DNA of 9,540 nucleotides from a virus (taxonomy: Duplodnaviria; Heunggongvirae; Uroviricota; Caudoviricetes), in the IMG/VR virus record IMGVR_UViG_2671180651_000017. One strand, written 5' to 3'. This document shows positions 3,391 through 3,677 of this stretch, in pieces. The translations under genes were made by a program, and so were the position numbers. Each line of letters begins with the position of its first letter. Position 1 is the first letter of the stretch. The notes under the pieces are model-generated. The model saw nothing but the letters and a program-made list of their open reading frames with translations, was not told the origin of the DNA and made no database searches.

Positions 3391-3677
3391 TTATTTTTAC
3401 CCCCCCTCGTTTAAAAAGTTTTAGGTTGTGGTGCACCTCCTCTACCTCTTCTACCTAATCATCTTTCAGGTCAGTAATGGCGCGGCTTTCAGATGGGTAG
3501 AGGACTTTTCGTGGCCCTCTACCCATCCTCTACCCGCCCCTCACAAACGACCTTAATCATGGTAGAGGGGTAGAGGGGTTTTATTAGCCTTCTACCTATC
3601 CCTCTACCCACTTATCATGTTGAATAATATGCGTTTATTTCATTCAGGTAGATGGGGTAGAGGGCTTTTACAAAAAA
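3391..3677. promoter_or_regulatory. Candidate replication origin: about 11 copies of the octamer CCTCTACC / GGTAGAGG in alternating orientation with AT-rich flanks
   Basis: Plus-orientation CTCTACC at 3439-3446, 3448-3455, 3515-3524, 3526-3535, 3588-3596, 3600-3609; inverted GGTAGAGG at 3495-3503, 3561-3569, 3569-3578, 3647-3655, 3655-3664. AT-rich stretches at 3391-3425, 3610-3645 and 3665-3690. No ORF. Immediately 3' of the primase/helicase gene. Confidence 0.6.

What the first reader, a model, noticed from the sequence alone, without database searches (positions are those of the whole stretch)
3391..3677. Iteron origin downstream of the primase/helicase: about 11 CCTCTACC octamers in alternating orientation
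The octamer occurs in paired clusters that switch orientation (direct pair, inverted single, direct pair, inverted pair, direct pair, inverted pair) over about 230 bp, flanked by AT-rich stretches, immediately 3' of the primase/helicase gene. This matches the arrangement in P4, where the ori with repeated octamers lies downstream of alpha and is bound by its C-terminal domain. It is a strong origin candidate whose iteron sequence would define replicon specificity.
Basis: partly seen in the sequence, partly recalled or inferred. Interest (0 to 1): 0.55.

Follow-up and report, generated by a model that had tools for sequence, protein, structure and literature searches.

The report
Replication origin of an E. 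coli phage satellite
The repeated octamers are very probably the replication origin of a 9.5-kb phage satellite (a PICI) in the E. coli chromosome, a known kind of origin, and they come in a variant that travels with two amino-acid changes in the neighbouring initiator protein.

Summary
Eleven copies of CCTCTACC (8 exact, 3 with one mismatch) lie in 3439-3663, in the orientation pattern described, and the core GGTAGA occurs nowhere else in the window.

The window is a complete att-to-att PICI at the cspD-clpS site. The array starts 14 nt after the stop of a 582-aa SF3 helicase/initiator. That protein's C-terminus is homologous to the P4 alpha origin-binding winged helix, but it has no primase domain.

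EcCICFT073 Rep is 91% identical and has 11 iterons, 10 of them at offsets within 1-3 nt of the window's. Its pri-rep-ori segment has been shown to act as a replicon (Fillol-Salom 2018). This is therefore a known kind of origin: two oppositely oriented iteron pairs flank a 79%-AT gap (3610-3644).

The closest model is the PICI/SaPI origin, not P4. In P4, crr lies 3' of alpha and ori lies elsewhere.

Across 89 related loci classed by their iterons, type GGTAGANG goes with A542/S545 and type GGTAGAYA with N542/G545, with one exception. Differentiation between the two types is confined to codon 541 through the last iteron, about 365 bp. This suggests a specificity cassette, still untested.

The parts
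1..11 (-). att core repeat ATGATAGTTAT at the left end of the element
   Evidence: Exact 11-mer at both window ends. The same core is listed for PICIs at cspD-clpS in the Fillol-Salom 2018 supplement.
9530..9540 (-). att core repeat ATGATAGTTAT at the right end, next to int (8133-9356)
3678..5426 (-). Rep initiator/SF3 helicase, 582 aa, annotated as 'DNA primase family protein'. It contains D5_N, DUF5906 (P-loop helicase) and Pox_D5 C-terminal domains. No primase domain was detected.
   Evidence: Pfam and NCBIfam. PDB 7OLA (a staphylococcal primase/helicase chain; entry-to-paper link is from my own knowledge) matches residues 193-430 at E = 4e-15.
3705..3971 (-). C-terminal winged-helix origin-binding domain, residues 486-574
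   Evidence: phmmer match to 1KA8, the P4 alpha origin-binding domain, E = 1e-5. Pfam Pox_D5 covers 485-573, below its gathering score (20.6 vs 21.4 bits).
3792..3803 (-). Codons 542-545 (A-D-F-S). A542 and S545 are the candidate specificity residues at the start of the putative recognition helix alpha3.
   Evidence: Translation. Association with iteron type is 47/0/1/41. Helix assignment rests and is an inference.
3391..3677 (.). RefSeq annotation of near-identical genomes leaves 3328-3677 free of genes.
3647..3663 (-). Iteron pair A (CATCTACC at 3647-3654, CCTCTACC at 3656-3663), 14-31 nt after the Rep stop. It forms one flank of the AT-rich gap.
   Evidence: The slots at 17< and 26< are conserved in nearly all relatives (36 of 38 and 29 of 29 distinct origins).
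3610..3644 (.). AT-rich gap, the candidate DNA-unwinding element, between oppositely oriented iteron pairs
   Evidence: 79% AT on average in both iteron classes against 54-57% for the whole array. Its 30-mer dG is -32.6 against a window mean of -40.0 +/- 3.6.
3589..3608 (+). Iteron pair B (CTTCTACC at 3589-3596, CCTCTACC at 3601-3608). It forms the other flank of the AT-rich gap, in the opposite orientation to pair A.
3561..3576 (-). Iteron pair C (two abutting CCTCTACC copies, read on the minus strand)
3516..3534 (+). Iteron pair D (CCTCTACC at 3516-3523 and 3527-3534)
3496..3503 (-). Single iteron E
3470..3492 (.). Spacer GTCAGTAATGGCGCGGCTTTCAG, nearly invariant in both iteron classes (one fixed A/G difference). 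Function unknown.
   Evidence: Class consensus alignment. Window versus CFT073 alignment.
3439..3455 (+). Iteron pair F (CCTCTACC at 3439-3446, CTTCTACC at 3448-3455), the distal end of the array
   Evidence: Differentiation between the classes stops just beyond this pair.
3082..3390 (-). First gene downstream of the origin, a small phrog_1231 protein. RefSeq starts it at 3327.

Best explanation
The region 3391-3677 is the vegetative replication origin of a 9.54-kb phage-inducible chromosomal island (PICI) integrated at cspD-clpS.

Proposed mechanism. After induction, the Rep protein encoded immediately upstream (3678-5426) binds the eleven GGTAGAGG-type iterons. Rep is an SF3 helicase with a P4-alpha-like C-terminal winged helix, and the winged helix does the binding. 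Iterons mostly come in pairs 8-12 bp apart, about one helical turn. Two pairs pointing in opposite directions flank a 35-bp, roughly 79%-AT gap (3610-3644). There Rep hexamers assemble, melt the duplex and load themselves. The other seven iterons give cooperative binding. Priming must come from a host primase or from an unrecognised activity, because Rep has no detectable primase domain.

Specificity. Positions 7-8 of the iteron, together with residues 542 and 545 at the start of the putative recognition helix, set which Rep fires which origin.

Shown here: the repeat anatomy, the domain homology, conservation of the architecture, and the co-variation.
Taken from the literature: replicon function of the EcCICFT073 segment, and the SaPI self-loading model.
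Inferred: binding, the melting site, and the role of residues 542 and 545.
For: 1. Non-random array. There are 8 exact octamers against 0.14 expected, and the core occurs 11 times in the window, all in the array.

2. The window is a whole PICI. It is bounded by the att core ATGATAGTTAT, the core published for cspD-clpS PICIs. It carries int, an AlpA-like gene, rep, TerS and a capsid-like gene.

3. Rep residues 486-574 are homologous to the solved P4 alpha origin-binding domain 1KA8 (E = 1e-5). The helicase core matches PDB 7OLA, a staphylococcal primase/helicase chain (E = 4e-15).

4. EcCICFT073 Rep is 91% identical to the window's. It has 11 iterons at 17<, 26<, 72>, 94<, 105<, 114<, 145>, 156>, 178<, 224>, 233> nt after the stop, and 10 of these lie within 1-3 nt of the window's sites. 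Its pri-rep-ori segment drives replication of a thermosensitive plasmid, and both the rep and the ori deletions impair it (PMC6092414).

5. Iteron slots are conserved to within 1-3 nt in 9 E. coli elements, and the slot pattern recurs across roughly 90 loci. A Pectobacterium homologue at 42% identity, and 78 relatives of it, keep a closely similar 11-slot layout. They use a different iteron, GGTGAACA, which is the P4 type I octamer.

6. The gap between the first two pairs is 79% AT in both classes although its sequence differs. This matches the published PICI/SaPI rule of iteron sets flanking an AT-rich region, with iterons pointing in opposite directions on either side.

7. Co-variation. I classed 89 loci by iteron position 8. 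G8 goes with A542/S545 in 47 of 47 loci, and A8 goes with N542/G545 in 41 of 42. N-terminal Rep variants are shuffled evenly across the two classes. Differentiated sites run only from codon 541 to about 240 nt past the stop.

8. The downstream packaging modules differ among elements that share the array: TerS plus a small capsid-like gene, an HK97 capsid, capsid plus decoration protein, or a protease-capsid fusion. EcCICFT073 has no TerS at all.
Against: - Nothing has been tested on this element or on any origin of its iteron class. The functional test was done on the other class (EcCICFT073).
- In that published test, deleting ori reduced colony number but did not abolish it.
- One locus, L084 (a metagenome contig), pairs A542/S545 with an A8-type origin. 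Either specificity is not strict or the contig is chimeric.
- Codon 542 and the iterons lie within 365 bp of each other, so physical linkage alone explains part of the association. The two classes may represent a single historical switch.
- The AT-rich gap is only about 2 SD less stable than the window average and is not in the window's top 2%.
- The assignment of residues 542 and 545 to the recognition helix rests on a low-confidence model (pLDDT 50) plus a sequence alignment.
Confidence: 0.88

Rival explanations
1. The array is a P4-crr-like cis enhancer. It binds the initiator but is not where replication starts, and the true origin lies elsewhere, as in P4.
For: In P4 the octamer cluster immediately 3' of alpha is crr, and the annotated ori is on the other side of alpha, about 4.5-5 kb from crr. 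The window's iteron is a close variant of the P4 octamer (GGTAGACA/GGTAGAGG against GGTGAACA). The C-terminal domain is homologous to that of P4 alpha.
Against: The window is the whole element from att to att and has no second cluster. The core occurs 11 times, all here. In EcCICFT073 the fragment holding only rep and this region suffices for replication. P4 crr is two 120-bp direct repeats, whereas this array is a single unit with an internal AT-rich gap.
Confidence: 0.04
2. The octamers are the packaging (pac) recognition site for the element's small terminase, encoded about 0.8 kb downstream.
For: TerS proteins often bind arrays of short repeats near their own gene. A TerS gene lies at 1974-2579.
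Against: The same array at the same offsets occurs in elements with unrelated or absent terminase modules. One of these is EcCICFT073, which has no TerS and is packaged through cos sites. The region that differs between the two iteron classes stops at the last iteron and does not reach the downstream genes. Iteron type tracks Rep residues instead.
Confidence: 0.02
3. The array is mainly a transcriptional control region. Rep or another element protein would bind it to regulate read-through into the downstream packaging genes, and any origin function would be secondary.
For: The array sits inside a co-directional gene string between rep and the late genes. Initiator-iteron complexes in plasmids often also repress transcription (general knowledge).
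Against: There is no promoter-like or terminator-like site in 3050-3800. The architecture matches the published PICI origin rule, with an AT-rich gap flanked by opposed pairs. Replicon function has been shown for the EcCICFT073 segment. A regulatory side-role is not excluded.
Confidence: 0.05

Closest known systems
Origin of Gram-negative PICIs, prototype EcCICFT073 pri-rep-ori (Fillol-Salom et al. 2018, ISME J, PMC6092414)
   Same: Same gene order: DUF4222, rep, a roughly 290-350-bp intergenic array, then a small phrog_1231 gene. Rep is 91% identical. Both have 11 iterons with the core GGTAGA, 10 of them at offsets within 1-3 nt. Both have an AT-rich gap after the first pair. The window's att core is the one published for cspD-clpS PICIs.
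   Different: The iteron subtype differs: GGTAGAGG/GGTAGANG here against GGTAGA[C/T]A in EcCICFT073. In the last 110 residues Rep differs only at A542N and S545G. The downstream module is TerS plus a 307-aa capsid-like protein here; EcCICFT073 has SSB, PerC and capsid plus decoration protein, and uses cos packaging. This element itself has not been tested.
SaPI origins and Rep self-loading helicases (SaPIbov1, SaPI1, SaPI5; PMC9371898)
   Same: The origin lies immediately 3' of rep. There are 6-12 short iterons, an AT-rich region with iterons pointing in opposite directions on either side, and a C-terminal winged helix that reads the iterons. PDB 7OLA, a staphylococcal primase/helicase chain, matches residues 193-430 (E = 4e-15).
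   Different: SaPI iterons are 5-6 nt and unrelated in sequence. The AT-rich region is roughly central in SaPIs, whereas here it splits the array 2 + 9. Sequence similarity is limited to the helicase core.
Phage P4 alpha protein with ori and crr
   Same: The C-terminal origin-binding winged helix is homologous (1KA8, E = 1e-5). Both use octamer iterons in mixed orientation, paired 9-11 bp apart, with a cluster directly 3' of the gene. The octamers are related: P4 GGTGAACA against GGTAGACA/GGTAGAGG. Sister elements with the same array layout use the P4 octamer itself.
   Different: P4 is bipartite: ori at 9086-9809 plus crr at 4291-4590. What lies 3' of alpha is crr. P4 alpha has Zn-ribbon and Toprim primase domains that this protein lacks. 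The window has one cluster only. No Pfam, PHROG or NCBIfam hit to a sid, psu or delta-type family was seen among the ORFs scanned.

Membership tests
PICI replication origin (Gram-negative PICI / SaPI type) | Lies immediately 3' of the rep (pri-rep) gene | tested here: met
   The first iteron ends 14 nt after the Rep stop codon at 3678-3680.
PICI replication origin (Gram-negative PICI / SaPI type) | Sets of short iterons flank an AT-rich region, with iterons on the two sides pointing in opposite directions | tested here: met
   Pair 3647/3656 (minus) and pair 3589/3601 (plus) flank 3610-3644, which averages 79% AT in both iteron classes. The rule is quoted.
PICI replication origin (Gram-negative PICI / SaPI type) | Host element is a PICI: int at one end, specific att repeats, AlpA-type regulator, rep, size about 10-15 kb, no full phage gene set | tested here: met
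   The att core ATGATAGTTAT is at 1-11 and 9530-9540 and matches the published cspD-clpS PICI att. Genes: int 8133-9356, AlpA-like 7047-7271, rep, TerS and a capsid-like gene only. The size is 9.54 kb, slightly below the usual range.
PICI replication origin (Gram-negative PICI / SaPI type) | The rep-ori segment supports autonomous replication, and Rep binds its cognate iterons | not testable with these tools
   Shown in the literature for EcCICFT073, whose Rep is 91% identical. Not shown for this element.
PICI replication origin (Gram-negative PICI / SaPI type) | Initiator has an SF3 helicase core plus a C-terminal winged-helix DNA-binding domain | tested here: met
   D5_N and DUF5906 pass their Pfam thresholds. 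The C-terminus matches 1KA8 at E = 1e-5.
Phage P4 replication system (alpha, ori, crr) | Bipartite cis elements: an ori and a separate crr several kb away, both carrying the octamer | tested here: not met
   There is a single cluster in the complete element. The core occurs 11 times, all in 3439-3663. P4 layout.
Phage P4 replication system (alpha, ori, crr) | Initiator carries an N-terminal DnaG-type primase (Zn ribbon plus Toprim) | tested here: not met
   P4 alpha hits Zn_Ribbon_Prim and Toprim_3. The window protein's first 150 residues have no Pfam hit at E <= 1 and no credible PDB-sequence hit (best E = 0.95).
Phage P4 replication system (alpha, ori, crr) | C-terminal origin-binding domain homologous to P4 alpha residues around 670-777 | tested here: met
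   phmmer against 1KA8: E = 1e-5 over residues 486-574.
Iteron plasmid origin (RepA/pi/TrfA type) | Direct repeats of about 17-22 bp, all in one orientation, next to DnaA boxes, with a Rep of the two-winged-helix RepA family | tested here: not met
   The repeats are 8 bp and in mixed orientation. Only two one-mismatch DnaA-box-like sites are present. The initiator is an SF3 helicase.

The most novel reading that the evidence does not exclude
Among E. coli/Shigella PICIs, origin specificity may be carried by a roughly 365-bp cassette that moves between satellites by recombination. The cassette runs from Rep codon 541 to the last iteron. Two substitutions at the start of the winged-helix recognition helix (A542/S545 against N542/G545) would retarget Rep. 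The change is from GGTAGAYA to GGTAGANG iterons, and it has occurred in concert across most of the 11 sites. The result would be two replicon classes that do not cross-activate, which could allow two satellites to live in one cell.
Probability: 0.5. Interest if true: 0.45.

Novelty: new member of a known kind. Interest (0 to 1): 0.3.

Why it matters
For annotation, this places the origin of a satellite found in many E. coli O157:H7 and other EHEC genomes. It also shows that the neighbouring 'DNA primase family protein' is an origin-binding helicase with no recognisable primase domain.

For biology, the kind of origin is already described, so the origin call itself adds little. What is new and testable is the pairing of two recognition-helix residues with a concerted change in the iterons. 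The pair is kept together while the rest of Rep and the downstream genes recombine freely.

If the two residues do switch specificity, they give a minimal natural example of how an initiator and its origin change specificity together. They would also offer a simple marker for predicting which co-resident satellites can cross-activate or compete for replication.

Tried and rejected
- blastn of 3300-3800 against the phage collection gave no match. The element is chromosomal, not a catalogued phage.
- A literature search for the octamer strings returned only unrelated primer and motif hits.
- The search for homologous proteins with the full Rep listed only proteins at least 97% identical. That gave no depth for a structure alignment.
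- A single-sequence AlphaFold2 run on residues 470-582 came out at pLDDT 50. I used only its secondary-structure order and ran no fold search on it.
- Promoter and terminator scans, Rfam, tRNA, DnaA-box, IHF and GATC searches in or around the array found nothing informative.
- My first differentiation test was circular, because I had defined the classes by residues 542 and 545. I repeated it with classes defined by the iterons.
- My first statement that the association had no exceptions was wrong. L084 is an exception.
- Readings considered and rejected: pac site, integrase arm sites (the array is about 4.5 kb from int and tracks Rep instead), RepA-type plasmid origin, and chance repeats.

Full report
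**Observation**

The octamer CCTCTACC occurs 8 times exactly in the 9540-bp window, all within 3439-3663. Dinucleotide-preserving shuffles expect 0.14, and none of 200 reaches 8. Allowing one mismatch adds three copies inside the array: CTTCTACC at 3448 and 3589, and CATCTACC at 3647. It adds only two scattered matches elsewhere. The hexamer core GGTAGA/TCTACC occurs 11 times in the window, all in the array.

Adjacent copies in a pair are 8-12 bp apart. The array begins 14 nt after the stop codon (3678-3680) of a 582-aa ORF on the minus strand. AT-rich 30-mers (77% AT) lie at both edges and at 3611-3640 inside the array.

**What the window is**

All sizeable genes run on the minus strand:
- integrase, 8133-9356
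- an AlpA-like excisionase/regulator, 7047-7271
- an Icd-like gene
- a DUF4222 gene, 5423-5722
- the 582-aa protein, 3678-5426
- a small phrog_1231 gene
- a small terminase, 1974-2579
- a 307-aa capsid-like protein, 888-1811

Near-identical DNA sits in E. coli O157:H7 and other chromosomes between clpS and cspD. The 11-mer ATGATAGTTAT occurs at 1-11 and at 9530-9540. This is the att core that Fillol-Salom et al. 2018 list for PICIs inserted at cspD-clpS. The window is therefore one complete phage-inducible chromosomal island from att to att. This matters for the argument, because any second origin-like cluster would have to be inside the window, and there is none.

**The adjacent protein**

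Pfam finds D5_N (151-280), DUF5906, which is the SF3 P-loop helicase core (314-415), and a sub-threshold Pox_D5 match (485-573). Against solved structures there are two hits:
- Residues 193-430 match PDB 7OLA, a staphylococcal primase/helicase chain (E = 4e-15). I take this to be the SaPI PriRep of PMC9371898 from my own knowledge; no tool output links entry and paper.
- Residues 486-574 match 1KA8, the origin-binding winged-helix domain of phage P4 alpha (E = 1e-5).

The name 'primase' comes from TIGR01613. Here that model aligns to residues 227-493, the D5_N-helicase part. P4 alpha itself has Zn_Ribbon_Prim and Toprim_3 domains. The window protein does not, and its first 150 residues hit no Pfam family and no solved structure. 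It is best called a Rep-type initiator helicase.

**Relatives**

The intergenic region matches 565 of 5426 complete E. coli genomes. In eight further elements that I fetched, the block DUF4222, rep, a 286-350-bp intergenic region and the phrog_1231 gene is constant. The packaging genes beyond it vary: TerS plus the small capsid-like protein, an HK97 capsid with protease and portal, capsid plus decoration protein, or a protease-capsid fusion.

Measured from the Rep stop codon, iterons occupy the same slots to within 1-3 nt in all of them. The slots are 17<, 26<, 70-72>, 82>, 104<, 113<, 145>, 156>, 178<, 224> and 232>.

The prototype EcCICFT073 has a Rep 91% identical to the window's. It has 11 iterons, 10 of them at offsets within 1-3 nt of the window's. 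That element's rep-ori fragment was shown to keep a thermosensitive plasmid alive at the restrictive temperature. The rep deletion abolished this and the ori deletion reduced it. [quoted passage not shown]

In the window, the pair at 3647/3656 and the oppositely oriented pair at 3589/3601 flank 3610-3644. This gap averages 79% AT in both iteron classes although its sequence differs, against 54-57% for the whole array. That is also the SaPI rule. In SaPIs, Rep is a self-loading helicase whose C-terminal winged helix reads the iterons.

**Deeper conservation**

A 618-aa Pectobacterium homologue (42% identity) has iterons at 16<, 26<, an AT-rich gap, then 69>, 90<, 101<, 109<, 140>, 153>, 228> and 236>. 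Its octamer is GGTGAACA, which is the P4 type I iteron. Seventy-eight relatives of it in IMG/VR keep this 11-slot layout. Single members use GTAGACA or TATGAACA instead. The layout has therefore been held constant while the repeat sequence changed several times. This is what one expects of a nucleoprotein machine and not of a chance repeat.

**P4 comparison**

In the P4 record, alpha is at 4636-6969 on the minus strand. The cluster directly 3' of alpha is crr (4291-4590, two 120-bp repeats carrying ten octamers). The annotated ori is at 9086-9809, on the other side of alpha. The window element has one cluster, not two, and in EcCICFT073 rep plus this one region suffices. The domain homology with P4 alpha is real, but the system is organised like a PICI/SaPI origin.

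**Specificity**

The E. coli/Shigella elements fall into two iteron types. The window type is GGTAGAGG, or more generally GGTAGANG. The EcCICFT073 type is GGTAGA[C/T]A.

In 90 loci (E. coli genomes, Shigella and 80 IMG/VR contigs) Rep carries either A542/S545 or N542/G545. I then classed the 89 analysable loci by the iterons alone. G at position 8 goes with A/S in 47 of 47 loci. A at position 8 goes with N/G in 41 of 42. The Fisher p of 1e-24 is not corrected for relatedness.

The exception is L084, a metagenome contig with A/S and an A8-type origin. It is either a true recombinant or an assembly chimera.

The association is not a whole-gene lineage effect. The two main N-terminal variants of Rep are split 25/20 and 20/19 over the two classes. 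In the last 400 codons, sites with allele-frequency difference of at least 0.7 occur only in codons 541-573. The three strongest (0.98) are the non-synonymous positions of codons 542 and 545, and the maximum upstream is 0.61. Downstream, strongly differentiated columns stop about 240 nt after the stop codon, at the last iteron. The unit that stays together is thus about 365 bp: the end of the C-terminal domain plus the array.

The two conserved tyrosines (Y523, Y526) mark helix alpha2 of this winged-helix family according to PMC2777425. The next predicted helix is 541-554, followed by a hairpin at 561-570 (low confidence). Residues 542 and 545 would then sit in the first turn of the recognition helix. 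An Asn paired with an adenine at position 8 fits common protein-DNA contact preferences (general knowledge). This step is inference.

**Caveats on the specificity claim**

Physical linkage explains part of the association, and the two classes may reflect a single historical event.

**Rivals**

- A pac site is unlikely. The array is present unchanged in elements without TerS or with unrelated packaging modules.
- A crr-like enhancer with an origin elsewhere is unlikely, because the complete element has no other cluster.
- A purely regulatory array has no support. No promoter-like or terminator-like sites were found. A side-role in regulation cannot be excluded.
- No known RNA family or tRNA overlaps the region.

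**Verdict**

The finding is real and its interpretation is essentially right. It is a member of an already described kind of origin, with a 91%-identical counterpart tested experimentally. It is a new member rather than a new kind.

The most interesting residue is the candidate two-residue specificity switch that co-inherits with the iterons. It is cheap to test and, as far as the searchable literature showed, not described.

Noticed in passing
window 1-11 and 9530-9540: The window begins and ends with the same 11-mer, ATGATAGTTAT. This is the att core published for PICIs at the cspD-clpS site, so the window is one complete 9.54-kb island.
   Followed up: yes
window 4977-5426 (Rep residues 1-150): The 'DNA primase family protein' has no detectable primase domain. 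Its N-terminal 150 residues have no Pfam or PDB hit and occur in at least two divergent variants that recombine freely among elements. What primes replication is open.
   Followed up: partly
window 3470-3492: The spacer GTCAGTAATGGCGCGGCTTTCAG, between the single iteron and the distal pair, is nearly invariant in both iteron classes (one fixed A/G difference) while other spacers diverge. It is absent from the Pectobacterium-type origins. Its function is unknown.
   Followed up: no
L084 (IMGVR_UViG_3300029303_000153): This is the only locus of 90 that combines A542/S545 Rep with an EcCICFT073-type (A8) origin. The crossover lies between codon 545 and about codon 577. It is either a real mismatched recombinant or a chimeric metagenome assembly.
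   Followed up: partly
L191 and L197 (IMG/VR relatives of the Pectobacterium Rep): Within the GGTGAACA subfamily, single elements use GTAGACA or TATGAACA iterons in the same slot layout. Their putative alpha3 start is almost unchanged but the wing differs. The wing may therefore read other iteron positions.
   Followed up: no
window 888-2579: The packaging module is minimal: a TerS and a 307-aa protein with only a weak HK97-capsid match, and no portal, protease or TerL. A 53-aa ORF at 1801-1962 also hits the TerS PHROG (positions 89-125), which suggests a partial duplicate.
   Followed up: no
window 6330-7037: The Icd-like cell-division-inhibitor ORF is long here (235 aa). RefSeq annotates it as a truncated pseudogene in a near-identical O157:H7 genome, and it is split or frameshifted in several relatives.
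   Followed up: no
L051 and L114 (both from IMG genome 2703718778): One genome carries two such satellites, one of each iteron class. This fits the idea that different classes can co-reside, but it is a single case.
   Followed up: no
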